DNA from: a bacterium | GTDB lineage: Bacteria; Patescibacteriota; Microgenomatia; Curtissbacterales; GWA2-41-24 | NCBI GenBank assembly: GCA_021813945.1 | Contig: JAKAJD010000001.1 | Location: 270,742 to 334,741 of the forward strand | Direction: 5' to 3' | Length of the DNA stretch: 64,000 nucleotides | In this document: in pieces, positions 8,915 to 19,729 of the stretch | How positions within the stretch are numbered: the first letter of the stretch is position 1 | Layout of the letters: every line of letters starts with the position of its first letter | Position numbers and translations under genes: made by a program | Notes under the pieces: model-generated | Database searches by the model: none | What the model was told of the DNA's origin: nothing | The model's input: only the letters and a program-made list of their open reading frames with translations

Positions 8915-10456
8915 ATGAAAAAAAGCGCAATCATCAGTAAAATTATTGAGTTTTTATTTTGGCCGGGATTAATTTTTCACCTTTATACGGCTTCTTATTA
9001 TGCCCTAAAGGGTGAACTTAACTTTCAAACTGATATTGGCCGCGACTTTTTACTTTTCGAAGAGATACTCCAGAAAAAAATCGTTCTTATTGGTGGACGC
9101 ACGAGTGCTGCAGGGCTGTTTCATGGACCCTTGTGGTCCTATATCAATTTTCCAGTTTTTTGGCTTAGTCGCGGGAACCCCGTTGCACAAGAATGGTTTT
9201 GGTTATTTCTAATTGTTCTTTTTTTATTTTTTTCTTTCCAAATATGTAAAGATCTTTTTGGAAAAACTTCAGCCTTCATTTTCGTGTTGCTTACATCTTC
9301 TTTTTTGGCTTTTTGGGCCAAAGAATTTACACATCCCCACGCGGCATTTCTTCTAATGCCGTTTTTCTTCTATACCCTTATAAAATATACGGAAAATTTC
9401 AAAATAAAATGGCTCATTTATCATGTCCTTCTTTCTGGATTCATAGTCCAGCTGGAAGTTGCAGCCGGCGGACCGTTTTTAGTACTTTCATATCTTTATA
9501 TTCTTTTCAAACAATACAAGCAAAAACACATTAATCAGGCGCTTGGCTTCCTGGTAATTCTATTACCCCTCTCGCCATACATTTTGTTTGACCTTAAACA
9601 CAATTTTTTTCAAATTAAGAATTTAATTGTCTACGTACTGCCACATCCAAAAGAACACTACGTGGGGTTATCAAATATCCTAACCGACAGGCTAAATTAT
9701 GCAACAACCTTTGCGGTTCCACTTCTTCATAACTTAGGCCAACTAAAGTTATTAAACATTTTCTTTGCCCTTGTATTTCTAATTTTGACAATTTTAAGAT
9801 TGCAAGAAAAAAAGATCGGGCGGATTTACTGGGTATTTCTTTATTTTTTCTTTGGCTATTTCATAATAAGCCTTTTAAGCCGTTATTATCTTTTGACTCA
9901 AGATTTCTTGCCATTGGTGTCAGTCGTTTTTATGATTTTTGCGTCACTTTCCCAACCTAAATTTGCAAAAACATTTTTGGTCATGTTTCTAGTTGTTTAT
10001 ACTCTTAACATTTACGCCGGGACAAGATATCTAAGCGAATCAAAAAAAACAATGTCTTCCAGCCTAACATCCTGGAGGATTCTATCAAAAATATCCCAAG
10101 ACACATTTAGCGGCCCCGAAAACGAATTTGGATATTTTGTATATTCCCCAGACAAGCTGTCTTATTCGGCAAAGTATGCTCTTGTTTATGGAAGCTTAAA
10201 CAGCAGAAAAAAAGCTTATTATTTTGAAAAAAAACCCGTAACTTATGTCATAAGTGAAGCACCGGCTTACAACGATCCATGGGCAAAAAACTTCACCGAT
10301 GTCTGGTGGATCAAAAACTCAATAAAAATTAAGCCGGAGCCAGAACTTATCATTCATTACAAAAACGGCTACGAGCTAAAAAAATATAATTTAACTCCAG
10401 ACGAGATCAATATACCCTGGGACAAGCAGGAAGACACAGGCCTTCATTTCAGATAG
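8915..10456 (+). CDS. Polytopic membrane protein, GT39/ArnT-like glycosyltransferase family (paralog of 284..1783)
   Basis: 513 aa. 'GGRTSAAGLFHGPLWSY' aligns with 'GPPTDIPGFFHGPLYLY' of ORF 284. Multiple TM helices and a similar C-terminal soluble domain. Confidence 0.5.
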   Translation: MKKSAIISKIIEFLFWPGLIFHLYTASYYALKGELNFQTDIGRDFLLFEEILQKKIVLIGGRTSAAGLFHGPLWSYINFPVFWLSRGNPVAQEWFWLFLIVLFLFFSFQICKDLFGKTSAFIFVLLTSSFLAFWAKEFTHPHAAFLLMPFFFYTLIKYTENFKIKWLIYHVLLSGFIVQLEVAAGGPFLVLSYLYILFKQYKQKHINQALGFLVILLPLSPYILFDLKHNFFQIKNLIVYVLPHPKEHYVGLSNILTDRLNYATTFAVPLLHNLGQLKLLNIFFALVFLILTILRLQEKKIGRIYWVFLYFFFGYFIISLLSRYYLLTQDFLPLVSVVFMIFASLSQPKFAKTFLVMFLVVYTLNIYAGTRYLSESKKTMSSSLTSWRILSKISQDTFSGPENEFGYFVYSPDKLSYSAKYALVYGSLNSRKKAYYFEKKPVTYVISEAPAYNDPWAKNFTDVWWIKNSIKIKPEPELIIHYKNGYELKKYNLTPDEINIPWDKQEDTGLHFR

Positions 10457-10496: not shown

Positions 10497-11093
10497 ATGG
10501 AAGGACAGCAGGCAGCCGGTTTTCGCTTTAAAAAATTTCTGTTCAATCGGGCCCTTCGAATTCTACTTATCACCAACGGACTAATCCTTCTGGCAAGCGC
10601 CATGTTAGGTCCAATCTATGCCTTATATGTGCAAAAGGTTGGGGGAGATCTTTTGGATGCAAGCTTGGCAGGAAGTATTTTTGCCTTCATTGCCGGCTTA
10701 ACGGTTCTTCTTTCCGGCAAATATTCAGACAAGTTGCCTCAAAAGAAACTTGTTGTAGTCATGGGTTATATCATAATCGGTCTCGGTTTTTTACTCTACA
10801 CAAAGGTCAACTCAATAAAATTTTTGCTTTTAGTCCAAGTAATCATCGGTTTTGGCGATGCAATCTATAACGCACCTTTTGACGCTCTATATTCCGAACA
10901 TCTGGACGAAGGAAAAGATGGAACCGAATGGGGGACTTGGGAGGCCATGAACTACTTTGCAACCGCGGCCGGAGCCTTAATTGGGGGAGTCTTGGTCACC
11001 AAATTCGGCTTTACCCCTCTTTTTGTAATAATGGCCATAATGTGCTTTTCAAGCGCTTTTTACGTCTATTTTCTGCCTAAACGCATTCTTTAA
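10497..11093 (+). CDS. Half-size MFS-like transporter (6 TM) / possible truncated MFS
   Basis: 198 aa and 6 predicted TM helices. The pattern 'GKYSDKLPQKK' resembles the MFS motif A loop. The length is half that of canonical 12-TM MFS proteins. Confidence 0.4.
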   Translation: MEGQQAAGFRFKKFLFNRALRILLITNGLILLASAMLGPIYALYVQKVGGDLLDASLAGSIFAFIAGLTVLLSGKYSDKLPQKKLVVVMGYIIIGLGFLLYTKVNSIKFLLLVQVIIGFGDAIYNAPFDALYSEHLDEGKDGTEWGTWEAMNYFATAAGALIGGVLVTKFGFTPLFVIMAIMCFSSAFYVYFLPKRIL

Positions 11094-11145
11094 CTCACAT
11101 AACCTTGCGCAAACCTTCCTTTATGTGGTATTATCAAAATCTGCT

Positions 11146-11172
11146 CGTTTTTTGTGATAAATCACAAAAAAA
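11146..11172. promoter_or_regulatory. Perfect AT-rich palindrome TTTTTTGTGAT-AA-ATCACAAAAAA (operator-like)
   Basis: 11-bp arms read directly in the sequence. The TGTGAT/ATCACA half-sites resemble CRP/FNR-type half-sites, but the spacing is non-canonical. Confidence 0.3.
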
Positions 11173-11178
11173 TGAGGA

Positions 11179-11211
11179 CCCAAACAATTAACCGTTTGGG
11201 ATTTTATTTTT
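11179..11211 (+). terminator. Rho-independent terminator candidate (after MFS-like gene)
   Basis: Stem CCCAAAC / GTTTGGG (7 bp) with an 8-nt loop, followed by ATTTTATTTTT. Confidence 0.45.
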
Positions 11212-11214
11212 AAA

Positions 11215-11646
11215 ATGTCAGAACGCGAACTAAGCACAGGTCAAGTAGATCAAGGTCCATATCGTGGACATTACCGCATGCAAACACGAATGCCCGATGG
11301 AAGCACTAGGCATTCCGTCTTGTTGGGCAATTCAGGGAATGGTACGCCAGAATCCGGTTCCGCCGAAGAGCTAAGACGCATTGTGGAAAGATACCGACTA
11401 ATTGGAATTGAAGTCCACATCGAAAACGAAGCTGACATGGCCCGAACCACCAGGCGAGATGGGGTGGGATTCAAAGAAAAACCTCCTGCAGAAGCAGGAA
11501 GATATAGTGTCTGGGCAGTAGAATCTCAAGCAACTTTGGCACATCTTGAATGGTTAAAAATTAATCGACATACGAGATCCCCTAGAATAGAACATCCAGC
11601 ACAAAATGTATTCAAAATGCAAAGACATTCGCGTTCACAGATCTAA
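11215..11646 (+). CDS. Hypothetical protein (GC-rich ORF, doubtful)
   Basis: 143-aa open frame in a markedly GC-rich segment. It starts 4 nt after the terminator T-tract and has no RBS. No motif recognised. Confidence 0.25.
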   Translation: MSERELSTGQVDQGPYRGHYRMQTRMPDGSTRHSVLLGNSGNGTPESGSAEELRRIVERYRLIGIEVHIENEADMARTTRRDGVGFKEKPPAEAGRYSVWAVESQATLAHLEWLKINRHTRSPRIEHPAQNVFKMQRHSRSQI

Positions 11647-12585
11647 AGCTGGATGAGAAACTTTTATCCCGTATTTGGCAAAGCCGTAATCTAAAAGCTC
11701 TTTCATTTCGCCTCTGCGGTTATCACTTCCAAGAATCACACCCAAAAGCTTAACCCCTTTGTTCTCTGCATATGTGGCCAGACACAAGCCGGCTTCCCAG
11801 GTAAATCCGGGTTTTATGCCTTTTACTCCGGGATACGTAGTCAATAAATTTGTTTCGTTATAAAGGTCAAAAGCTTTATGGGTATCTGTTGCATCAATTG
11901 CATAGTGTTCTGTTGAGACAACCTGCCTAAATTTTTCGAAATTTTGCATAGCATAATGGGAAAGCACCGCAAGGTCATAAGCTGTTGAATAGGGGTTCCT
12001 GCCGTCTTCGTCTAAACCGGAAGCATTGATAAAGCGGGTATCACTCATCCCCAGTAGGCGTGCCTTTTCATTCATTTTAGAAACAAAGGCATCTTCCGAC
12101 CCCGAAACTCCCTCCGCGATAGTCACTGCCGCGTCGTTTCCAGATGGAAGCATCAATCCATACAAAAGCTCATCTACTGCCAACTTTTCTCCTGCGCTAA
12201 GCCCCATACTGTCCTCGCCAACAGTTGCTGCTTTTTGGGAAACTTCAAAAACCGCATCATCTTTAGACGAAGAAAGCGCAACAAGAGCCGTCATAATCTT
12301 GGTTAGCGAAGCAATGGGCGCACGGCTCTGGATATTTTTAGCATAAACTATTTCACCAGTGTCAAAATTTACCAAAATCGCCGAATTTGCACTCAGATTT
12401 AATGGTGAATCGGCCCTAAAGTTAAACGTAGACTTTTTAGGAAACCAGTTGTTGGTTAACTGGGTAGAACTTGCGCCAAACACTTTAGGGATTGGAGAGG
12501 TGAAAGAAAAATCAGAACCTTTATAAAAGTAAAAAGCCGCTAATATACCGGCCAATAACAAAAAAAAGGCAAAAATCCTACCCAT
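11635..12585 (-). CDS. D-alanyl-D-alanine carboxypeptidase (peptidase S11, PBP5/DacA-like)
   Basis: SxxK 'ASLTKIMTAL' and SxN 'LPSGNDAAV' motifs. N-terminal signal anchor. 316 aa. Confidence 0.8.
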   Translation of the reverse strand: MGRIFAFFLLLAGILAAFYFYKGSDFSFTSPIPKVFGASSTQLTNNWFPKKSTFNFRADSPLNLSANSAILVNFDTGEIVYAKNIQSRAPIASLTKIMTALVALSSSKDDAVFEVSQKAATVGEDSMGLSAGEKLAVDELLYGLMLPSGNDAAVTIAEGVSGSEDAFVSKMNEKARLLGMSDTRFINASGLDEDGRNPYSTAYDLAVLSHYAMQNFEKFRQVVSTEHYAIDATDTHKAFDLYNETNLLTTYPGVKGIKPGFTWEAGLCLATYAENKGVKLLGVILGSDNRRGEMKELLDYGFAKYGIKVSHPALDL

Positions 12586-12599
12586 AACTCTATTTTACT

Positions 12600-13841
12600 T
12601 TAGGCGTTGGGGTTTATCAAAAAGCCTTTCATGTCTTCTCTGCCAATGATCACCTTATACATCATATGTGATCGTTCCGTCACAGTCGCCACGGTTTTAA
12701 CCTTTTTTCCCGCGATCATATATTGTAGGTTGACAGCACTTCTTAGCTGCTCTCCATTTGCGGCCCGAATCAAAATTTTATGCGGCAAAATCGGCAGTTT
12801 CAAATCACGAACAATTGACCAGTCAATTGCCGTTCTTAAGGCACCCGAATCGACTTTGGCATCGTAAGTCTTGTTACCATATTCCCCCAAAATCGTAATT
12901 GGCTCAACCAAAGAAAGCATGGTTGGCGAAACTCCAACTTTTTCTAGGTTCTCCTCAGCAAAAAGCGATTGTGAAAGTTCAACTCCGCGGTCGATATTGG
13001 CAACATTGATGTTTTCTACCCGCTCGAGTCTGGACCTGAGCGAATCCAAATTTGCATTTTGAATTTCAAGGCCAGGCCGGGCATTTATTTCCAAAACCAA
13101 AGGACCCCGGTTTGCATCTAATACTATATCCACACCGCAATAACCTAAGCCTTCGATAACGTCTTGCGCCTTAGCTGCAAGCCTAAGCATGTTTGCCCAA
13201 TTTGGAAGTTTTATTCCACGCGTCTTAATTCCAGTTCCAGGTATCTTTTTAACCTCTTTTCCTTTCAAAACAGCATGCTTTGTGATACCAGTTCGAAGAT
13301 CAATCCCGACACCTATTGCACCTAAGTGCAAATTGGCGGTTCCCCGTGATTCAACAGTGGGAATTCGAAGCATAGCCATAACAGGAATTCTTCTAAGCAA
13401 AACGACACGTATATCAGCAAGCCCCACGGCCACGAATTTTTTGAAAAACTTGTCCTGTACAACTCTTTCTTCTAGATATGCCTTATCCGGCAAATCCTGT
13501 AACGAATAAACCCCCTCAAAAATGTCAAAGATATGCGATTCCAACTCGTCCTTCGTGTAAATTTCTCCCGATACTGTTGTTCCCATATCCTTTTTCCAAC
13601 TGCGAAAAACCAGTATCCCTTCACCGCCATAACCTCTTGCCGGCTTAACTACAAAACCTTCCTCCGGAAGCTTCCAATCGAATGATCTAATTGCCGAACG
13701 TGTGTTAAAGGCTTTTATAAGCCGTGTTGTTGCTATACCGTCTTTTATAAGAAGCCTTTTAGTTCTAAGTTTGTTGTCTGCCGCTTTTTTGGCAACGCTT
13801 GTGTTATAGCGCCGGACATATAAAAAATTGCGGGCATTCAT
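12600..13841 (-). CDS. RimK-like ATP-grasp amidoligase fused to C-terminal retropepsin-like ('ATP-dependent zinc protease'/DUF785) domain
   Basis: N-terminal 'MNARNFLYVRRYN...VVKPARGYGGEGILVF' is an ATP-grasp fold. C-terminal 'AKVDSGALRTAIDW' carries the aspartyl-protease D-S/T-G-A signature. The start was placed at the ATG 'MNARNF' with a GAGG RBS; the ORF track extends to 13895. Confidence 0.6.
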   Translation of the reverse strand: MNARNFLYVRRYNTSVAKKAADNKLRTKRLLIKDGIATTRLIKAFNTRSAIRSFDWKLPEEGFVVKPARGYGGEGILVFRSWKKDMGTTVSGEIYTKDELESHIFDIFEGVYSLQDLPDKAYLEERVVQDKFFKKFVAVGLADIRVVLLRRIPVMAMLRIPTVESRGTANLHLGAIGVGIDLRTGITKHAVLKGKEVKKIPGTGIKTRGIKLPNWANMLRLAAKAQDVIEGLGYCGVDIVLDANRGPLVLEINARPGLEIQNANLDSLRSRLERVENINVANIDRGVELSQSLFAEENLEKVGVSPTMLSLVEPITILGEYGNKTYDAKVDSGALRTAIDWSIVRDLKLPILPHKILIRAANGEQLRSAVNLQYMIAGKKVKTVATVTERSHMMYKVIIGREDMKGFLINPNA

Positions 13842-13854
13842 GCCCAAGGCGCCT

Positions 13855-14784
13855 CTACTTACTGCCATTTTTCCTAACCTGAGAAAAACGAACAAATTCC
13901 GTCAGTCTCAATCCGAAATATCTTCCTATAAGAAGGTTTACAGGAATAAGAAGAAGGATAAATTCCGGATAGAGAAGTACGCCATGGCTTAGCTTTGTTG
14001 ACGTCAAAATCAAAAAGCCGGTAATACCCAAAATCAAAGTTACAGATGTAATAAAAACGGTCTCTCTTAAGCTGCGCGCAAGTTGAAGCGACATTATCCG
14101 CTCGCCTAAAAGCACCAAAATCAAAATCGGAAAAATTGAAATCTGCTTTACAACCAAAATTCCGGAGGCCGCAGAAACAGTCAAAGTCAAAAAGACAAAG
14201 ATTGCAACAATAAGAACAGAAAGAGCTTTCTTGGGAACCTGCATAATTCTAACGCTTTTTAAAATAATGCGGCCTATTACGGAAGCTAAAATAATAGAAA
14301 ACAATAAAATTCCACCGGCAGTAAGCCCTGTTGAAACCAACGTCACCGAAAGCGCAATGGGAACTATCATATCCAAACTTGGCAAACCGATGAGATGCCT
14401 GAAGAAGGCCACAATCGTTGCCAAAACTGGCAGCAGAAGAATCAGCATCACGGTATTGGCGGGAATGCCAACTTGCACTGCGTATTGAACCGTGAAGGCA
14501 ATAAAGTTGAAAGGGGAAAGCCGCGAAATAGGCCTTTTTTCAAAAAGTTTTGCAAAATCTTCCGAAGATTCCTGTGGGTTTGTAATATCCATCGGTTTTA
14601 TCTGGTCAACAGGTAGCCCAAAAGCACTGGCGGATGCTTCAGGCGTTGGTTGATTCGAGACAGTAAGTCCCGAAGGGCTCGGGCTAGAACTCACAACTGC
14701 TGTGCTCAATGCGTACGCAGGTCTCAAGGCAAGGTAAAAAAGAACCGTTACCGCAAAAAAAGCAACAATTTTTTTCAATCTCAT
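13855..14784 (-). CDS. 7-TM membrane protein partner of the ATP-grasp/retropepsin protein
   Basis: Signal peptide 'MRLKKIVAFFAVTVLFYLALRPAYA', a Ser/Pro-rich linker, then about 7 TM helices. It is immediately upstream of the ATP-grasp gene on the same strand. The ORF track start at 14862 uses TTG. Confidence 0.5.
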   Translation of the reverse strand: MRLKKIVAFFAVTVLFYLALRPAYALSTAVVSSSPSPSGLTVSNQPTPEASASAFGLPVDQIKPMDITNPQESSEDFAKLFEKRPISRLSPFNFIAFTVQYAVQVGIPANTVMLILLLPVLATIVAFFRHLIGLPSLDMIVPIALSVTLVSTGLTAGGILLFSIILASVIGRIILKSVRIMQVPKKALSVLIVAIFVFLTLTVSAASGILVVKQISIFPILILVLLGERIMSLQLARSLRETVFITSVTLILGITGFLILTSTKLSHGVLLYPEFILLLIPVNLLIGRYFGLRLTEFVRFSQVRKNGSK

Positions 14785-14809
14785 TTGCCAAAGTATATCA
14801 AAAAACAGT

Positions 14810-15898
14810 CTAAATCTCCTCAGTCCTGCGGTAAAGGATTTTTGAATGGGAAAAAGAAGCAATTGTCAAGGAAATCTTAGCAAGATAATCTGAAACAGCC
14901 AAAACCAAAACAAAAAGCACAAAAGTCCAGACAAGCGAAAGCGGATGTATATACGTTGAAAAAACCCTCAGAACCAAAGTGTGTGCCAGATATGTTACAT
15001 ACGATCTTTGCCCCACCCTTACCAGGCCGTCATGGATTCTTTTTGGAAGATGCCTAAAGTAATCAAGGCCAGACATGAACGTTAAGAGTGAAAGTCCCGC
15101 ATAAGACAAAACAACAAGTCTCGTTGATCTTGTAGCTACAGTTAAATTAGAAAGTACACTAGCTAATCTGAACGTGTTTTGGGCTTCCAAAATTAACCCT
15201 AAAACAGCCAAAGAAAATATTACCCAAAAATATTTTTTTAAATTCGCAATTACTTTAGTTTCCACCGCCAAATAAATACCCAAAACAAAATAGAAAATCC
15301 AAGTGCCAAAAAATAAATATTGCTGTTGGTCATTCAAAAAAATCGGCAATTTTATGTTTCCTTGCGAGAACTGGGATAAAACATAATAAAATGCCGTCTG
15401 CCACAAGATAATCAAAATTAGAGTTACATTAGCCTGTTTTTTGATAAAAAACATTAAAAAGGGAAAGATCAAATATAGCGAAAATATCATCGGCACAAAG
15501 TACAAGTGGTAATCAGCTTTTCCTAAAAAGATAACTTTCCACAGTGGAAAATAAGGTGCCGATTGGCCGAAAACGCTGAGCCTTATGTAAAAATAAACAG
15601 CGGCCGACCAAAAAAAATACCACGGTAAAAGGCGAAGCAGCCTTTTTTTAAAAAACTCGAAGGCGGAAATCGGCCTGTTTTTATACCTCAAAGTCAGCGT
15701 ATATCCCGAAAGAAAAACAAAAAGGGGAACAGAGAAGCGGCTAAACTGGTCTAAAACAATATATATCTTAAAAAGTAGAGAGCTCCAAGGTAAATTGTAT
15801 AAAGCGCCGCTTATAGTGTGGATTAAAACAACCGCAATTATTGCAAAGGCCCTTAAAATATCAAGGCCGGATATTCTTTCACTTTCCGGCTTTTGCAT
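14810..15898 (-). CDS. Acyltransferase family 3 (OafA/OatA-like membrane O-acyltransferase)
   Basis: 362 aa, 10-11 TM helices. N-terminal 'LDILRAFAIIAVVLIHT' is typical of Acyl_transf_3. Confidence 0.7.
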   Translation of the reverse strand: MQKPESERISGLDILRAFAIIAVVLIHTISGALYNLPWSSLLFKIYIVLDQFSRFSVPLFVFLSGYTLTLRYKNRPISAFEFFKKRLLRLLPWYFFWSAAVYFYIRLSVFGQSAPYFPLWKVIFLGKADYHLYFVPMIFSLYLIFPFLMFFIKKQANVTLILIILWQTAFYYVLSQFSQGNIKLPIFLNDQQQYLFFGTWIFYFVLGIYLAVETKVIANLKKYFWVIFSLAVLGLILEAQNTFRLASVLSNLTVATRSTRLVVLSYAGLSLLTFMSGLDYFRHLPKRIHDGLVRVGQRSYVTYLAHTLVLRVFSTYIHPLSLVWTFVLFVLVLAVSDYLAKISLTIASFSHSKILYRRTEEI

Positions 15899-16208
15899 CA
15901 GAAAGGTCCTGTTTAAGATCCCGTTTTAAAGTTTCGGAGACGTTTTTTATCTTATCTTCTATTTTTTCGATATTTTTGACCAAGTGGTTCCATGTACGCT
16001 CATTTGTATCGTAATTTACATTTGCCAAAAATACTTTCTTCTCACGGTCGGAAAGTTCCGAAAGTACGGCCTCAAGTATTGTTTGGTGAAGCTCATACCT
16101 TGCCATGTCAGCAAGCTTTTTCTTTTCTATGTCTGATACATCTAATGCGTCGATTTCAGCTTCAATCCATTCCAAATCCAAAATTTCGTGGTAAAAGTAT
16201 TTTTTCAT
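15879..16208 (-). CDS. Hypothetical cytoplasmic protein
   Basis: 109 aa, charged, helical. It overlaps the acyltransferase start by 20 nt. Confidence 0.4.
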   Translation of the reverse strand: MKKYFYHEILDLEWIEAEIDALDVSDIEKKKLADMARYELHQTILEAVLSELSDREKKVFLANVNYDTNERTWNHLVKNIEKIEDKIKNVSETLKRDLKQDLSDAKAGK

Positions 16209-17096
16209 CTATATTGGTCCAAGTGGAATTGTATCATTTGGGTCGTCAATAAAATAATATAAAACAGCTCCTTTGCGCATGCCGTGCTGCAAACCCAAAT
16301 AGGCCATTACTTCGGGTGATCCGCCTAAATGCTTTCCCGTCCACTGCGCAGGCCCTGCATCAGCGATATCGGTTACAACCGCCTGTCCTGTTTTGGGATT
16401 TACAACAAGCATTTTGCGGTATTTAAAAAATTGGCTCATTTCGCGGGTATTTGTTAGATACCCCGGAGCGTCAAAAGTTTGAACAGCAATGTACCATTTT
16501 TCACGATCTGCATCTTTCTGAGTAAATAGCAACTGGGAAGGTGCAAAATAACCCCAGGCGCCTAAACCCGGAGCCATTCCTGAGGGGTAAAACAGTCGGT
16601 TATCATTGGCGTCAGGCCCTAAATGCCCACCCATGCCATCACCCGGATATCTGGCCAAATGCTGTTCTGCTCCGATATAACCGTAGCTTCTGTTAAGCCT
16701 TTTACCGTCAAGACTTGCGGAAACACTCATTTGAAATTGGTCTGAAAGTATTTTCCCAATAGATTCTTCTTCCACAGGCGTAAGCGGACGCATTTCATTG
16801 GGAAGCACTGATTTTAATGCAGAAGAAAATTCCGGAGTTTTGTTAGATGCTATAACCTCCTTGGGCTTGGCAAGCTCTGTTGAAATAGTACCAGCCTCCG
16901 CAGTAGTACCTGGGAGGGTATTTGCAAGCATTAACGCACCCACAGCTCCGGAAGCCAGTTTTTCTTTAGCCGGAATTTTTTCACCGATCCATACTAACGC
17001 GTCCTTGTGCTTAGTCCAAAGCTTTTCGTTGATAGCTTTATGGCGCTTCTGCCACTTTTTCGAAAGAGTTAAGTATTTCTTTGAAGATTTGGGCAC
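16209..17096 (-). CDS. RlpA-like / DPBB (double-psi beta-barrel) domain protein, putative peptidoglycan-binding lytic enzyme
   Basis: C-terminal 'KMLVVNPKTGQAVVTDIADAGP...GGSPEVMAYLG' resembles the RlpA/expansin DPBB core 'V.V.DRGP...IDLS.AA...LG'. Confidence 0.4.
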   Translation of the reverse strand: MPKSSKKYLTLSKKWQKRHKAINEKLWTKHKDALVWIGEKIPAKEKLASGAVGALMLANTLPGTTAEAGTISTELAKPKEVIASNKTPEFSSALKSVLPNEMRPLTPVEEESIGKILSDQFQMSVSASLDGKRLNRSYGYIGAEQHLARYPGDGMGGHLGPDANDNRLFYPSGMAPGLGAWGYFAPSQLLFTQKDADREKWYIAVQTFDAPGYLTNTREMSQFFKYRKMLVVNPKTGQAVVTDIADAGPAQWTGKHLGGSPEVMAYLGLQHGMRKGAVLYYFIDDPNDTIPLGPI

Positions 17097-17143
17097 AACC
17101 TAGTATATACAAAAACATTTATTAAATACTAGGAAATTAGAGT

Positions 17144-17374
17144 TCAGTCAGCCTTGTTTTCTTCACCTGCTTGATGCACTACATTTGCCTCAAACACAGA
17201 TGATACTCCACGCCGGCCGTTTGACCTGGCTATTGACCTACTCAAACCTTCGGCAAGGCTTCTTGTAATAGATACCTGCCCGCTCGGTACATTTCCTTCA
17301 CTCTCCCAGTCTCCAACAGCGAACTGAGACTGAGTGTCATACTCAGGAACATAACCATCTCTTTCGTTATGCAT
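17144..17374 (-). CDS. Hypothetical small protein (doubtful)
   Basis: 76-aa ORF with no motif. It lies in an intergenic stretch. Confidence 0.2.
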   Translation of the reverse strand: MHNERDGYVPEYDTQSQFAVGDWESEGNVPSGQVSITRSLAEGLSRSIARSNGRRGVSSVFEANVVHQAGEENKAD

Positions 17375-17460
17375 ATTACGGGTAATTTAAAACAATTGAA
17401 ACTTATGGTCAAATTTTCACACTATTTGTACAATTTACGATAATTTGTTAAGATTCCAAC

Positions 17461-18111
17461 ATGATAACAGTCCCGCAAGCAGTCGAAAAAATTATCAACC
17501 GCTCGAGATATCTCTCGGAAGCTCTCTCAAAAGACCTCATAAACACCACTTCTCTTGCTCGCTACATTAAAGTGGAAGTTGAAGAACTAACTTTTAAATC
17601 CGTGACTATTGGATCTGTCGCAATCGCCATAAAAAGACTGCAAAAAACCTACAAAAAAGGCTACAAAAAGATAACCGTATTCGCGGAAGCTCCGGATATG
17701 ATAGTACGGTCTAATCTTACCCTGATCTACGTCAAAAACTCCGACAATCTTCTATCCGAACTTTCAAAAGTGGAAGCCGACAGCCAAACCTTCAAAAAGA
17801 AGGCCTTATTCACGTATGGCCGCGTAGAAACAGTAATTCTTACAAACAAAATCAACCTAGAAGGAATTAAGGCTATCTTAAAAGATGAGGAGCTATCACA
17901 ATGCTTTCCAAACGTCTCATCTATAACAATCCATCTTCCCAAAGAATCCGTCAAAAATTCGGGGATTTTTTACTTTTTCATAAAATCTCTGGCCTGGGAG
18001 GGGGTGAACATTCTGGACATGCTCTCGACAGAAACGGAGCTGACCTTAGTCTTTGAACCCCAAGACACCAACACCGCCTTCGCAATCCTGCGTTCTCTTT
18101 TTGAAGAATAA
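17461..18111 (+). CDS. Hypothetical protein, possible ACT-like regulatory domains
   Basis: 216 aa. Repeated beta-alpha-beta-beta-alpha-beta-like segments. No catalytic motif. Confidence 0.35.
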   Translation: MITVPQAVEKIINRSRYLSEALSKDLINTTSLARYIKVEVEELTFKSVTIGSVAIAIKRLQKTYKKGYKKITVFAEAPDMIVRSNLTLIYVKNSDNLLSELSKVEADSQTFKKKALFTYGRVETVILTNKINLEGIKAILKDEELSQCFPNVSSITIHLPKESVKNSGIFYFFIKSLAWEGVNILDMLSTETELTLVFEPQDTNTAFAILRSLFEE

Positions 18112-18125
18112 GCTAAAATAAACGC

Positions 18126-18935
18126 ATGCAACGAGTCTCAGTCACCACCCTAAATACATTTGGAGGGGTAATAAATCCGTCTGGCCTAAACAGCCGTTAT
18201 GCTGCAATAGCAAGGTATTTTATTAAATCAGAGGTAGATGTCATAAATTTTCAAGAAGTTTTCACTTACTACCATCTACACTTGCTTCTTAAATCACTAA
18301 AAAAACGCTATCCTTATCACGCATTCCAGAATTCATATTTAGGCCCAAAAGGAGGCCTGGTAACTTTCTCAAAACTTCCTTGTAAAGGAAGGTACATAAG
18401 TTATAAAAGGAATTTCATACCAACTACAATAAAATCCAGCATAGAGCTTTTAACCCAGCGCGGAGCACTCGTGACAAAAGTTAAGAATCTTAACTTTACA
18501 ATCTTAAACACTCACATGACAGCCGTTTTAAATGGTGACTGGTCCAGGAAAAGCAAGTACTATAACGAGCTTTCATCCGAAATAAAACAATTCCACAAGA
18601 TCGTAGAAAATGCACACAAAAATGGTAACGTGTTGCTAGCCTCAGGAGACTTCAATATTGCCAAAGCCAGCCAGTTGTACAAAGAACTAATAAGTTATCA
18701 CAGCCTAGTCTACCCCTTCAAAAACAGCGGCGTGCCCACAAAGCACTCCAGTTTTCCGCAAACCGCACTAAAAACCAACTGCGTCGATTATATATTCGTA
18801 TTCAGCAACGCCAAACTATACAGCATCGAAAAAAAGAAATACGTCTTTACGCGTAAAATGGCACTAGAGCACAACAAAACGGGCTACGTATCCGATCACA
18901 TAGGGCTTTACGTTCAAATAAAATTAACCGCATAA
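18126..18935 (+). CDS. Endonuclease/exonuclease/phosphatase (EEP) family protein
   Basis: 'VINFQEVF', 'GDFN' and 'SDHIGLYVQI' motifs. Confidence 0.6.
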   Translation: MQRVSVTTLNTFGGVINPSGLNSRYAAIARYFIKSEVDVINFQEVFTYYHLHLLLKSLKKRYPYHAFQNSYLGPKGGLVTFSKLPCKGRYISYKRNFIPTTIKSSIELLTQRGALVTKVKNLNFTILNTHMTAVLNGDWSRKSKYYNELSSEIKQFHKIVENAHKNGNVLLASGDFNIAKASQLYKELISYHSLVYPFKNSGVPTKHSSFPQTALKTNCVDYIFVFSNAKLYSIEKKKYVFTRKMALEHNKTGYVSDHIGLYVQIKLTA

Positions 18936-18937
18936 GC

Positions 18938-19729
18938 TTATGCCAGCTTCTTTGCTGATTCGTACAATTCATAATCCTTTTCATGTAAATCATAAAAACG
19001 ACTTATAAATGCAGGTCCATAACCTTGAATTGGTTCTCTTGCATCCGGTGTTCTGTTCAATCGTTTAGCCTTAAATCCTCGGTCACAACCTACAGGCATT
19101 AGACCCTCCCGCCGAATACACTCTATTAATTTATCAGCAAACACATCCAATTCGTCAGTGATACCTACAACAGCAAAATCACCAAGATTCTTTTTCCCCA
19201 AAGCTTGCGATTGATAATTCCTAAGTTCAGGCAATAAAGCATATTCCTCAAATGTTAAAGACGGCCGAAATGGTATTCTTACACGCCACTGGGTGACCCC
19301 TCTTGTTCTCCTCCAATGAGCGTACTGCGACCTCATTCTTTCAAGGGGGTCCCTGATCACAACGACCGAAACAGGGTCTGAAATATGCAAATCAAAACGG
19401 TCAGCAACGAAATGTCCGTGTACGGCCGAAAAATCATCTGGCATTTCAAAAACATGAATAGTCTTTGGCTTTAAAATATTAGTACTAAGCAATAAATATG
19501 CTCTATTTATAATAAACGCTAGTGGGGTATTTGCAATTTGCGCGCGCAACAAATCATGAACAGCACTAGTTCGCCGAGCCTTGAGATCAGCAGCCCTCGC
19601 TAAGGTATCGTCAATGGGGTTGTACACAAGAACCCTATCCTTGCCTAATGCAGATTCTAGAAGATCCTGAACAGAAGTTCCTGCGGTTTTTTCAATATGA
19701 ACACTTACTACTCGTCTTTCCAAACTCAT
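18938..19729 (-). CDS. Sulfotransferase family protein (PAPS-dependent)
   Basis: 'HIEKTAGTS' matches the 5'-PSB loop (HIPKTGGT-like). 'VVIRDPLERMRSQYAH' matches the 3'-PB motif (RDP..R..S.Y). Composition is GC-rich. Confidence 0.6.
   Translation of the reverse strand: MSLERRVVSVHIEKTAGTSVQDLLESALGKDRVLVYNPIDDTLARAADLKARRTSAVHDLLRAQIANTPLAFIINRAYLLLSTNILKPKTIHVFEMPDDFSAVHGHFVADRFDLHISDPVSVVVIRDPLERMRSQYAHWRRTRGVTQWRVRIPFRPSLTFEEYALLPELRNYQSQALGKKNLGDFAVVGITDELDVFADKLIECIRREGLMPVGCDRGFKAKRLNRTPDAREPIQGYGPAFISRFYDLHEKDYELYESAKKLA

What the first reader, a model, noticed from the sequence alone, without database searches (positions are those of the whole stretch)
11635..17096. ATP-grasp/retropepsin fusion + 7TM partner embedded in a peptidoglycan-remodelling operon
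Six genes sit on the minus strand with overlaps or short gaps. They are an RlpA/DPBB-like protein, a small cytoplasmic protein, an Acyl_transf_3 O-acyltransferase, a 7-TM protein with a secreted N-terminal domain, a RimK-like ATP-grasp fused to a retropepsin-like (D-S-G-A) domain, and a PBP5-type DD-carboxypeptidase. The ATP-grasp + retropepsin-like + 7TM triad is a conserved but biochemically uncharacterised predicted peptide-ligating (amidoligase) system. Here it is wired into genes that trim, acetylate and cleave peptidoglycan. That suggests it adds or removes an amino acid on a cell-wall peptide or on an envelope protein.
Basis: partly seen in the sequence, partly recalled or inferred. Interest (0 to 1): 0.7.

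Follow-up and report, generated by a model that had tools for sequence, protein, structure and literature searches.

The report
Membrane-docked glutamate-ligase/retropepsin fusion in CPR bacterium
A candidate-phyla-radiation bacterium carries a stripped-down, fused version of the recently described Pseudomonas RloABC envelope-stress system (a 7-helix membrane protein plus one cytoplasmic protein that joins a RimK-like ligase to a retropepsin protease), and its position among cell-wall genes is a local accident of this lineage rather than a conserved feature.

Summary
The six minus-strand genes exist as described and are tightly packed (junctions -20 to +25 nt). The RlpA/DPBB call for the 295-aa protein is not supported by sequence. 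The 7TM protein has no globular N-terminal domain.

Only the 7TM-to-fusion pair is conserved. It is present in all 76 related loci that have upstream sequence, and 71 of those have an overlap or a gap of 30 nt or less. The four "peptidoglycan" genes accompany it only in the nearest relatives. At 59-67% identity they are rearranged, on the other strand or absent.

The module is a Patescibacteria variant of RloABC / RimB-RimK. The ligase domain is RloC-type (41% identical to TIGR02291 members). The protease domain keeps the catalytic Asp and the three Lys/Arg residues that coordinate polyglutamate in RloA (120 of 120 homologs). It has no signal peptide, so it acts in the cytoplasm.

Elsewhere the pair is followed by RimK-family ligases or fused to a MATCAP-like carboxypeptidase, and the 7TM protein is sometimes fused to the ligase.

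Best reading: a membrane-docked system that adds and trims acidic (poly-Glu) peptide. It is a new variant of a known kind, of moderate interest.

The parts
13855..14784 (-). RloB-like 7TM membrane protein, short form (309 aa from M27; the mechanical ORF extends to 14862 from a TTG). It has an N-terminal signal/anchor helix, about 85 aa of Ser/Pro-rich linker, a 7TM_transglut core, and a conserved cytoplasmic C-terminal motif G-L-R-x-x-E-x-x-R-F. There is no transglutaminase domain.
   Evidence: PF14402 6e-22 (res 136-329 of the 335-aa ORF). NF052267 RloB 1e-11, matching only model positions 311-506 of 508. 50 orthologues are 262-333 aa with invariant G291, R293, E296 (and P273-E274). It lies directly upstream of the fusion gene in 76 of 76 loci. 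Natural 7TM-ATPgrasp_ST fusions exist.
12600..13868 (-). Fusion protein (422 aa from M10; the ORF extends to 13895 from a TTG). Residues ~10-300 form an RloC-type ATP-grasp ligase (ATPgrasp_ST). Residues ~315-422 form a retropepsin-like aspartic peptidase (D340-S-G-A; I-I-G-R-x-D). No signal peptide or TM segment, so it is cytoplasmic.
   Evidence: PF14397 2e-64; TIGR02291 284 bits (cutoff 314). 41% identity to a bona fide TIGR02291 member. AF2 model pLDDT 85, N-domain best match RimK 5zct. C-domain model pLDDT 90, best matches 2pma, RloA2, RloA, HIV PR. Catalytic and polyE-binding residues conserved 120/120. Exact protein = P0001 on a 976-kb ENA contig.
12603..12932 (-). Retropepsin-like domain of the fusion (residues 313-422). 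It ends two residues after the domain and lacks the acidic tail present in nearly all homologs.
11635..12585 (-). S11 DD-peptidase, catalytic domain only, with an N-terminal membrane anchor (SxxK and SGN present, K-P-G box). It is a neighbour in this lineage and not part of the conserved module.
   Evidence: PF00768 1e-57; motif alignment; position varies or the gene is absent in relatives.
14810..15898 (-). Acyl_transf_3 membrane O-acyltransferase (362 aa, no SGNH domain). Acceptor unknown. Lineage-specific neighbour.
   Evidence: PF01757 3e-40 over residues 10-339. Near the module only in L001, L035 (opposite strand) and L089 (three genes away).
15879..16208 (-). 109-aa soluble helical protein of unknown function. 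It is the obligate partner of the 295-aa protein.
   Evidence: No significant family hit. It follows the p295 orthologue directly in L001, L010, L092 and L093.
16209..17096 (-). 295-aa protein of a large Pfam-less Patescibacteria family: basic N-terminus, a weakly hydrophobic conserved segment, and a conserved C-terminal domain. The DPBB/RlpA-like fold is unproven.
   Evidence: 4091 homologs, none with a Pfam domain. No Pfam or PDB hits for the family. hhalign vs RlpA probability 3.4%. Autonomous pair with p109.

Best explanation
The functional unit is a two-gene module, not a six-gene operon. A short RloB-like 7TM membrane protein is translationally coupled to a cytoplasmic bifunctional enzyme, in which an RloC-type ATP-grasp amidoligase is fused to a retropepsin-like aspartic endopeptidase. 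It is a Patescibacteria (near Candidatus Curtissbacteria) variant of the RloABC / RimB-RimK type of system.

Proposed mechanism:
1. The ligase domain docks on the conserved cytoplasmic C-terminal tail of the 7TM protein. It uses ATP to add alpha-linked glutamate (or another acidic residue) to a carboxylate acceptor, building an acidic oligo- or poly-peptide.
2. The retropepsin domains, dimerised within the ligase oligomer, bind that acidic chain through conserved Lys/Arg residues and cut it internally. This limits chain length or releases product and keeps the ligase turning over, as RimB does for RimK.
3. The 7TM partner either passes the product to the envelope or is the membrane target or regulator of the cycle.

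Shown here: domain identities and folds; intact catalytic and polyGlu-binding residues; cytoplasmic location predicted from the absence of a signal peptide or TM segment; obligate gene coupling with the 7TM gene; natural 7TM-ligase fusions; recurrent association with further RimK-family ligases and MATCAP-type carboxypeptidases.

Inferred: glutamate as the monomer, the acceptor, the role of the 7TM protein, and any envelope or osmotic phenotype.

The adjoining S11 peptidase, acyltransferase and p295-p109 pair are regional synteny of this lineage. They are probably co-transcribed here but are not part of the mechanism.
For: Pairing. The 7TM gene lies immediately upstream on the same strand in 76 of 76 loci: 37 overlap (mode -14 nt), 34 have gaps of 0-30 nt, 5 have larger gaps.

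Rosetta-stone fusions. 7TM_transglut+ATPgrasp_ST (576 and 680 aa) and Transglut_core+7TM+ATPgrasp_ST (799 aa, hitting both NF052267 RloB and TIGR02291) place the ligase at the cytoplasmic C-terminus of the 7TM protein.

Ligase. PF14397 2e-64; TIGR02291 1e-84; 41% identity to unfused TIGR02291 members; best structural match is the poly-alpha-L-glutamate synthetase RimK; K75, E133, D247, E260, N262, R264 invariant in 120 of 120.

Protease. Retropepsin fold closest to RloA, RloA2 and DUF785. The profile aligns AK-x-D-T-G-A, E-R-P and D-R-S with RloA2. These positions correspond, by motif and identical 23-residue spacing, to RloA K46, D48, R114 and R137. In RloA these coordinate octa-Glu, and R114A and R137A abolish function. 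All four are conserved 120 of 120. The domain has no Cys, like cytosolic RimB and unlike secreted RloA (sequence).

Precedent. RimB binds RimK, stimulates its ATPase four-fold and is required for free poly-alpha-Glu synthesis. An active RimB-RimK hybrid exists.

Context in other CPR lineages. One to three RimK-family ligase genes lie directly downstream in 42 of 73 loci. MATCAP/DUF1704-like peptidase genes are adjacent in 6 loci, and this domain is fused in roughly 40 of the best 150 representatives, judged by length (about 770-820 aa); one of them (P0259) was confirmed by Pfam.
Against: No biochemical data exist for any ATPgrasp_ST/RloC enzyme, so glutamate is inferred from RimK similarity and from the protease's binding residues.

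The window protein, unlike at least 99 of 116 homologs, lacks the acidic C-terminal tail, and the 64-kb window has no accessory RimK-type ligase. This lineage may therefore work somewhat differently.

The Pfam name ('sugar-transfer associated'), a YdjC fusion and a GT4 neighbour hint at a glycan acceptor.

The retropepsin domain is about 110 aa, shorter than RloA (130-150 aa), so the flaps and specificity may differ.

Dimerisation and docking on the 7TM tail were not modelled.
Confidence: 0.55

Rival explanations
1. One reading: the module adds or removes an amino acid on a peptidoglycan stem peptide (or its lipid-linked or nucleotide precursor) or on an envelope protein, working together with the flanking S11 peptidase, acyltransferase and putative RlpA-like protein.
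For: The six genes are tightly packed in the window, and the same order is kept in L001. An S11 gene lies within 2-7 kb in most Microgenomates-level relatives. alr, a Mur ligase and ddl lie within 5 kb in two Saccharimonadia loci. Pseudomonas rlo mutants have cell-shape, hypo-osmotic and beta-lactam phenotypes, and the authors speculate on a peptidoglycan link. From general knowledge, ATP-grasp enzymes that add amino acids to wall precursors do exist.
Against: The linkage is not conserved. About 37 of 52 loci of 9 kb or more have no gene of the cell-wall panel, and in relatives at 59-67% identity the gene order, strand and distance all change. p295-p109 is an independent pair found elsewhere. 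Both catalytic domains are cytoplasmic. The protease conserves polyGlu-binding residues, and RloA needs 8 or more Glu. The RlpA identity is unproven and the acyltransferase has no SGNH domain.
Confidence: 0.12
2. A RimK/RimB-type ribosomal modifier: the fusion polyglutamylates and trims the C-terminus of ribosomal protein S6 (or another cytosolic protein), like the RimBK hybrids, and the 7TM protein is only a regulator.
For: Best structural match is RimK. The protease domain is cytosolic and Cys-free, like RimB. An active RimB-RimK hybrid is known. RimK-family genes follow the module in many CPR loci.
Against: The ligase belongs to ATPgrasp_ST/TIGR02291 (284 bits), not RimK proper (TIGR00768 54 bits against a cutoff of 143; PRK10446 30 bits). 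The domain order is the reverse of RimBK. The obligate pairing, and occasional fusion, with a 7TM membrane protein has no counterpart in Rim systems.
Confidence: 0.1
3. A glycan or surface-polymer amidoligase: the ATP-grasp amidates a carboxylate on a cell-surface polysaccharide or lipid-linked sugar with an amino acid or peptide (the original 'sugar-transfer associated' prediction). The 7TM protein acts as the flippase or scaffold, and the protease edits the peptide.
For: The Pfam family name and description. A fusion with a YdjC-like carbohydrate deacetylase. A GT4 glycosyltransferase directly downstream in L004 and L008. An Acyl_transf_3 gene adjacent in the window.
Against: Sugar-related neighbours are rare among the 82 non-redundant loci whose neighbours were clustered. 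The dominant partners are peptide enzymes: RimK-like ligases, MATCAP-like peptidases and the retropepsin.
Confidence: 0.13

Closest known systems
RloABC system of Pseudomonas aeruginosa (Lormand et al., mBio 2025, PMC12239564)
   Same: It has the same three protein modules: an ATPgrasp_ST/TIGR02291-type ATP-grasp (RloC), a 7TM_transglut membrane protein (RloB) and a DUF785/RimB-like retropepsin (RloA). They are genetically linked. The catalytic Asp and the Lys/Arg residues that bind polyGlu in RloA are conserved.
   Different: The retropepsin is fused to the C-terminus of the ligase and has no signal peptide or disulfide cysteines, so it is cytoplasmic rather than periplasmic. The 7TM protein lacks the inactive transglutaminase domain entirely. 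There are two genes instead of three. The host is a Patescibacterium, whereas the paper reports 96% of RloB hits in Proteobacteria. The protease domain is about 110 aa, with shorter flaps.
RimB-RimK and the RimBK hybrid (Little et al., JBC 2025, PMC11957791)
   Same: A cytosolic retropepsin is physically coupled to a RimK-like ATP-grasp. The fusion of the two activities in one polypeptide is precedented and active. RimB trims polyGlu and stimulates poly-alpha-L-Glu synthesis.
   Different: The domain order is reversed (ligase N-terminal here). The ligase is from a different ATP-grasp family (PF14397, not RimK proper). It has an obligate 7TM partner. There is no evidence for S6 as substrate.
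Amidoligase systems predicted by Iyer, Abhiman, Burroughs & Aravind 2009 (source of Pfam ATPgrasp_ST, 7TM_transglut, Transglut_i_TM)
   Same: The same Pfam families and the same predicted peptide-ligating logic.
   Different: That paper could not be read here, so whether it lists this exact CPR architecture is unknown. My recollection of its content is a lead only.
Tubulin tail code enzymes (TTL/TTLL ATP-grasp ligases; MATCAP carboxypeptidase)
   Same: The logic is analogous: ATP-grasp ligases write, and peptidases erase, amino acids on acidic C-terminal tails. A MATCAP-homologous domain is fused to the ligase-retropepsin pair in many relatives. There is a weak TTL Pfam hit (E 9e-4).
   Different: This is analogy only. 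The window protein has no MATCAP domain and no acidic tail, and no tubulin-like substrate is known.

Membership tests
RloABC system | RloC-type ATP-grasp (PF14397 ATPgrasp_ST / TIGR02291) | tested here: met
   PF14397 2e-64, full-length match. TIGR02291 1e-84 at 284 bits, just under the 314-bit equivalog cutoff. 41% identity to members that pass the cutoff. That P. aeruginosa RloC itself is a TIGR02291 member was not checked directly.
RloABC system | [quoted passage not shown] | tested here: not met
   Only the 7TM half matches (RloB model positions 311-506 of 508; PF14402). The N-terminal region is about 85 aa of low-complexity linker. All 50 CPR orthologues are 262-333 aa.
RloABC system | RloA: separate, secreted retropepsin with signal peptide and conserved disulfide | tested here: not met
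   The domain is fused to the C-terminus of the cytoplasmic ligase. There is no hydrophobic segment (maximum 19-residue hydropathy 1.52) and no Cys in the domain (sequence).
RloABC system | Retropepsin active site plus polyGlu-coordinating K46/R114/R137 equivalents | tested here: met
   K338, D340, R376 and R399 aligned by profile to RloA2, with the same 23-residue spacing, and conserved 120/120.
RloABC system | Loss-of-protease phenotype (hypo-osmotic lethality) suppressed by loss of the 7TM or ligase gene | not testable with these tools
   Requires genetics, and the host is uncultivated.
RimBK hybrid | RimB domain N-terminal to a RimK-proper ligase | tested here: not met
   The order here is ligase then protease. 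RimK models score far below cutoff (TIGR00768 54 vs 143; PRK10446 30 vs 331) (for the definition).
Clan AA retropepsin-like peptidase (PF05618 RimB-like / DUF785) | D-T/S-G-A catalytic motif, G-R-x-D motif and a single-lobe retropepsin fold | tested here: met
   D340-S-G-A and I-I-G-R-E-D are present. Foldseek best hits are 2pma, 9g59 and 9g58 (TM 0.65-0.72), then HIV-1 PR. Individual Pfam hits are at or below the gathering score (24.2 vs 24.3; 19.8 vs 27).
Clan AA retropepsin-like peptidase (PF05618 RimB-like / DUF785) | Homodimer forming the two-Asp active site | not tested
   No multimer prediction was available (structure jobs exhausted).
PBP5-type DD-carboxypeptidase (S11) | S11 catalytic domain with SxxK, SxN and KTG boxes, plus the PBP5 C-terminal domain | tested here: inconclusive
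   PF00768 1e-57. SLTK and SGN are present, the third box is K-P-G, and there is no C-terminal domain (316 aa vs 403 in DacA). It is an S11 member, but not PBP5-like in architecture.
RlpA / DPBB lytic transglycosylase (295-aa protein) | DPBB_1 domain | tested here: inconclusive
   No DPBB_1 hit in 26 family members at E<=1 and no PDB profile hit. hhalign vs E. coli RlpA gives probability 3.4%, with 33 columns aligned on the DPBB core. Fold not predicted.
OatA-type peptidoglycan O-acetyltransferase | Acyl_transf_3 domain plus an extracytoplasmic SGNH domain | tested here: not met
   Only Acyl_transf_3 (res 10-339 of 362), with no room for and no hit to SGNH. The definition of OatA architecture is from general knowledge.

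The most novel reading that the evidence does not exclude
The Patescibacteria module may be a self-contained, membrane-coupled synthase for a non-ribosomal acidic homopolymer. In this reading the ligase primes on an acidic C-terminal tail (its own in most lineages), the fused retropepsin releases defined poly-alpha-glutamate chains at the cytoplasmic face, and the 7TM protein exports them as an envelope polyanion or osmoprotectant. That would make the 7TM_transglut fold a new peptide exporter. It would also show that the periplasmic RloA arrangement of Proteobacteria is derived from a cytoplasmic ancestral form.
Probability: 0.15. Interest if true: 0.7.

Novelty: new variant of a known kind. 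Interest (0 to 1): 0.45.

Why it matters
The biochemical product of the Rlo system, which controls osmotic tolerance, cell shape, biofilm and beta-lactam tolerance in Pseudomonas, is still unknown. The CPR form strips the system down to a 7TM core plus one soluble bifunctional enzyme.

This form constrains models of how the system works:
- Ligase and protease can work on the same (cytoplasmic) side of the membrane.
- The transglutaminase domain is dispensable.
- The ligase sits on the 7TM C-terminal tail.
- The wider gene and domain associations (RimK-family ligases, MATCAP-type carboxypeptidase, acidic tails) point to acidic peptide tails as the chemistry.

The family also extends well beyond Proteobacteria, contrary to the published distribution: 390 representatives at 50% clustering with E<=1e-30, with CPR forms dominating the closest matches. 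The single soluble 422-aa enzyme is an attractive object for in vitro reconstitution.

The analysis also removes a tempting but unsupported link to peptidoglycan editing.

Tried and rejected
The metagenome scan with alignment A1 gave the 80 loci actually used.
2. The RlpA/DPBB identity of p295 was tested with Pfam on 26 members, a PDB profile search, and hhalign against E. coli RlpA. None gave significant support.
3. Foldseek with the full-length model showed only ATP-grasp hits. The C-terminal domain had to be modelled separately.
4. The promoter/terminator scan of 11000-17700 gave counts equal to shuffled expectation, so it says nothing about operon boundaries.
5. The Rfam scan found only tRNAs.
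6. The Iyer et al. 2009 paper (PMC3268129) is not held. Full-text searches for the Pfam names, and for Patescibacteria together with glutamate ligase, found nothing relevant.
7. Considered and rejected: that the retropepsin hit is a degenerate or inactive remnant (all catalytic residues are invariant); that the module is a mobile or foreign island (flat GC of 0.39-0.43; syntenic in relatives); that the fusion is an assembly or frameshift artefact (the same 422-466 aa architecture occurs in the 120 best-matching homologs, on contigs from independent samples).
8. Two apparent 'Ddl' hits next to the fusion in L065 and L067 are cross-hits to the RimK-like ligases, not Ddl.

Full report
OBSERVATION.

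The window carries six co-directional minus-strand ORFs at exactly the reported coordinates. Public gene calls on an identical 976-kb metagenome contig agree with them. Those calls place the start of the fusion at M10 (12600-13868, 422 aa). One of the two calls starts the 7TM gene at M27 (13855-14784, 309 aa), which begins with a classical signal/anchor helix.

With these starts the junctions are 0, -20, +25, -14 and +14 nt, so co-transcription in this genome is plausible. Consensus promoter and terminator scans were no better than shuffles.

The window has flat GC (0.36-0.44) and 14 scattered tRNA genes. The nearest named relatives of its proteins are Candidatus Curtissbacteria (67% identity), followed by Daviesbacteria, Levybacteria and Saccharimonadia. 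The organism is therefore a Patescibacterium (CPR).

WHAT THE SIX PROTEINS ARE.

Pfam and NCBIfam confirm four of the calls:
- Acyl_transf_3 (3e-40).
- 7TM_transglut (6e-22).
- ATPgrasp_ST (2e-64) / TIGR02291 'alpha-L-glutamate ligase-like' (1e-84, 284 bits against a 314 cutoff), with weak C-terminal aspartic-peptidase hits.
- Peptidase_S11 (1e-57).

The 109-aa and 295-aa proteins hit nothing.

The 295-aa protein belongs to a family of more than 4000 CPR proteins without any Pfam domain. Twenty-six members give no DPBB_1 hit, and the family profile finds no relevant PDB entry. hhalign against authentic E. coli RlpA (DPBB_1 5e-21) gives probability 3.4%, although the one aligned stretch is the DPBB core. 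The 'RlpA-like' label is therefore unproven.

The acyltransferase has no SGNH domain. The S11 enzyme keeps SxxK and SGN but has K-P-G for K-T-G and lacks the PBP5 C-terminal domain.

The 7TM protein matches only the C-terminal 7TM half of the RloB model. It has about 85 aa of Ser/Pro-rich linker where RloB has its inactive transglutaminase domain.

THE FUSION PROTEIN.

An AlphaFold2 model built on 26 homologs has mean pLDDT 85. Its N-terminal domain is most similar to the poly-alpha-L-glutamate synthetase RimK (5zct, 5zk6, 7qys; E about 1e-10), followed by cyanophycin synthetase, LysX/ArgX and Ddl.

The C-terminal 110 residues, modelled alone (pLDDT 90), match the following, in order:
- DUF785 protein 2pma.
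- The 2025 crystal structures of P. aeruginosa RloA2 (9g59) and P. fluorescens RloA (9g58), TM 0.65-0.72.
- HIV-1, foamy-virus and Ddi1 proteases.

In 120 homologs the ATP-grasp residues K75, E133, D247, E260, N262 and R264 are invariant. So are the protease residues K338, D340, G342, A343, R376 and R399.

The profile alignment to RloA2 places the motifs A-K-x-D-T-G-A, E-R-P and D-R-S in register. By motif and by the identical 23-residue spacing, K338/D340/R376/R399 correspond to RloA K46/D48/R114/R137. K46, R114 and R137 coordinate an octa-glutamate peptide in the RloA model, and R114A and R137A abolish cleavage and complementation.

The fusion has no hydrophobic segment and its protease domain has no cysteine. 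Both features resemble cytosolic RimB and differ from the secreted, disulfide-stapled RloA.

WHAT IS CONSERVED AROUND IT.

I fetched 80 metagenomic loci with full-length fusion homologs (39-66% identity), plus genome and assembly loci. I then searched their six-frame translations with the window's proteins.

A 7TM_transglut gene lies immediately upstream on the same strand in every locus that has upstream sequence (76 of 76). Of these, 37 overlap (mode -14 nt, as in the window), 34 have gaps of 0-30 nt and 5 have larger gaps.

The other four genes behave very differently:
- They accompany the pair in the same order only in L001 (91% identity).
- In L010 (59%) the order is p295-p109-unknown-S11-7TM-fusion.
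- In L004, L008 and L088 (64-67%) the pair is followed by a GT4 glycosyltransferase or by small ORFs, and the S11 gene is 4.6-7 kb away on the other strand.
- In L089 (62%) the acyltransferase is three genes upstream, and S11 is 2 kb downstream beyond a methyltransferase, greA and a transaldolase.
- In Daviesbacteria the pair follows secA. In Levybacteria and Saccharimonadia the neighbours are again different.

The p295-p109 pair is an independent unit. It lies between secD and secF in one genome and before greA-DUF8173-S11 in another.

A panel of 15 cell-wall queries finds a hit in only 15 of 52 loci of 9 kb or more. Two of those are cross-hits of Ddl to RimK-like genes, and the rest are confined to the window's own lineage and to one Saccharimonadia group (alr, Mur ligase, ddl).

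The core pair is strongly upheld.

WHAT ELSE TRAVELS WITH THE PAIR.

Clustering the three genes on either side of the pair revealed a dominant partner that the window lacks. In 42 of 73 loci with downstream sequence, the next gene on the same strand is a roughly 300-aa RimK-family ATP-grasp (PF08443 2e-22; TIGR00768 up to 1e-35). It often occurs as two or three tandem paralogues. These are the more distant relatives (50% identity or less).

Less frequent neighbours are a MATCAP/DUF1704 (TIGR02421 'QEGLA') metallopeptidase (6 loci), GNAT acetyltransferases, and a 755-aa ATP-grasp protein.

An exhaustive search of 1.84 billion cluster representatives gives 1996 relatives, 390 of them with E<=1e-30. 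It also exposes informative fusions:
- ATPgrasp_ST-retropepsin-MATCAP: P0259, 800 aa, confirmed by Pfam. About 40 of the best 150 representatives have this length.
- ATPgrasp_ST-retropepsin plus a second ATP-grasp (926 aa).
- ATPgrasp_ST-retropepsin-YdjC (688 aa).
- 7TM_transglut-ATPgrasp_ST (576 and 680 aa).
- Transglut_core-7TM-ATPgrasp_ST (799 aa). This protein hits both the RloB and the TIGR02291 models.
- Unfused proteins of about 320 aa that pass the TIGR02291 cutoff and are 41% identical to the window's ligase domain.

The 7TM-ligase fusions show that the ligase sits at the cytoplasmic C-terminus of the membrane protein. Consistently, the CPR 7TM proteins share an invariant C-terminal motif, G-L-R-x-x-E-x-x-R-F.

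COMPARISON WITH WHAT IS KNOWN.

Lormand et al. (mBio 2025, PMC12239564) named the Pseudomonas triad:
- RloA: secreted retropepsin that cleaves 8 or more consecutive Glu.
- RloB: inactive transglutaminase plus 7TM.
- RloC: cytosolic ATP-grasp.

Loss of the three RloA paralogues causes hypo-osmotic lethality, shape defects, biofilm loss and beta-lactam sensitivity. Deleting rloB or rloC suppresses these effects. The ligase product is unknown, and RloB is reported as 96% proteobacterial.

Little et al. (JBC 2025, PMC11957791) showed the following:
- Cytosolic RimB trims polyGlu from S6.
- RimB binds RimK and stimulates its ATPase four-fold.
- RimB is required for free poly-alpha-L-Glu synthesis.
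- An active hybrid, RimBK, exists with the protease N-terminal to RimK, in Flavobacteriales, Rhodobacterales and Desulfotalea.

The window's module shares its parts with Rlo and its cytosolic, fused logic with RimBK. It differs from both in four ways: reversed domain order, an RloC-type rather than RimK-type ligase, no transglutaminase domain, and no secretion signal. I found no description of this CPR form in the searchable literature. The 2009 Iyer/Aravind paper that defined the Pfam families could not be read.

MECHANISM.

The best-supported reading (confidence about 0.55) is a membrane-docked cycle that adds and trims an acidic peptide, most likely alpha-linked glutamate.
1. The ligase domain, bound to the 7TM tail, extends the acidic chain.
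2. The fused retropepsin, dimerised within the ligase oligomer, cuts it.
3. The 7TM protein exports the product or transduces the signal.

Domain identity, residue conservation, predicted location and gene or domain coupling are shown here. The monomer, the acceptor and the physiological output are inferred.

Rival explanations:
- S6 modification, as in Rim systems (about 0.10).
- Amidation of a surface glycan (about 0.13). This rival is supported by the Pfam family name, the YdjC fusion and the occasional GT4 neighbour.

An unexplained feature: at least 99 of 116 homologs carry an 8-28-residue acidic tail after the protease domain, and 42 of those tails end in Glu. The window protein and its 89%-identical relative stop two residues after the domain. 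The tail could be a built-in primer or pseudo-substrate. Its absence, together with the absence of accessory RimK-type genes in the 64-kb window, means that this lineage carries the most minimal form.

VERDICT.

The finding is a new architectural variant, in a new phylum, of a recently described but mechanistically unsolved system. It is of moderate interest (0.45), mainly because the minimal fused form and its Rosetta-stone relatives constrain how the Rlo-type machinery can work and offer a simple enzyme for reconstitution.

Noticed in passing
window 12600-12610 (C-terminus of the fusion); homologs P0003-P0120: At least 99 of 116 homologs carry an 8-28-residue Asp/Glu-rich tail after the retropepsin domain (42 end in Glu, reminiscent of the S6 tail used by RimK). 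The window protein and its 89% relative end at ...INPNA with no tail.
   Followed up: partly
window 15879-17096 (-); L092 7001-8220; L093 7001-8241: The 295-aa and 109-aa proteins form an autonomous, abutting or overlapping gene pair that is conserved across Microgenomates (more than 4000 homologs of p295, no Pfam). In a complete Daviesbacteria genome (CP066688) the pair sits between secD and secF, which hints at a secretion- or envelope-related role.
   Followed up: partly
window 11635-12585 (-): The S11 peptidase and its Curtissbacteria-level orthologues have K-P-G in place of the canonical K-T-G box and lack the PBP5 C-terminal domain. The Daviesbacteria orthologue (L092) keeps K-T-G.
   Followed up: partly
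P0259 (Pfam-confirmed) and about 40 other representatives of roughly 770-820 aa; L021, L026, L028, L030 gene -1: A MATCAP/DUF1704 (TIGR02421 'QEGLA') metallocarboxypeptidase domain is fused to the C-terminus of the ligase-retropepsin pair in P0259, and apparently in about 40 of the best 150 representatives (judged by length only). In other loci it is encoded just upstream of the 7TM gene. This parallels the eukaryotic tubulin-tail ligase/carboxypeptidase enzymes.
   Followed up: partly
L022, L025, L027, L033-L085 (gene +1 to +3 after the fusion): One to three tandem RimK-family ATP-grasp genes directly follow the fusion gene in 42 of 73 loci (the more distant CPR relatives). They are absent from the window and its clade.
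   Followed up: yes
window 8915-10456 (+); L006 10885-12246: A 513-aa polytopic membrane protein without any Pfam hit lies 1.2 kb beyond the S11 gene. A homolog (E 8e-18) lies 1.6 kb downstream of the module in Daviesbacteria.
   Followed up: no
window 11215-11646 (+): A 143-aa ORF (no family hit, Arg/Ser/Gly-rich) converges on the S11 gene and overlaps its 3' end by 12 nt. It is called as a gene in the public annotation. A terminator-like hairpin on the minus strand lies inside it (11501-11482).
   Followed up: no
window 17144-17374 (-): A 76-aa ORF lies 47 nt upstream of the 295-aa gene on the same strand. It is called as a gene in public annotation, has no family hit, and could be the first gene of the transcription unit.
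   Followed up: no
window 1816-53983: Fourteen tRNA genes are scattered singly or in small groups across the 64 kb, consistent with a small, gene-dense CPR genome.
   Followed up: no
window 18126-19729; L004 4985-6543; L088 3997-5498: An Exo_endo_phos protein and a roughly 263-aa protein (weak Sulfotransfer_2 hit) flank the cluster upstream in the window. Genes of the same kind and size lie in the equivalent position in other Curtissbacteria, although sequence homology to the window's copies was not detected by phmmer. This suggests that the p295-p109-acyltransferase block is an insertion relative to those genomes.
   Followed up: partly
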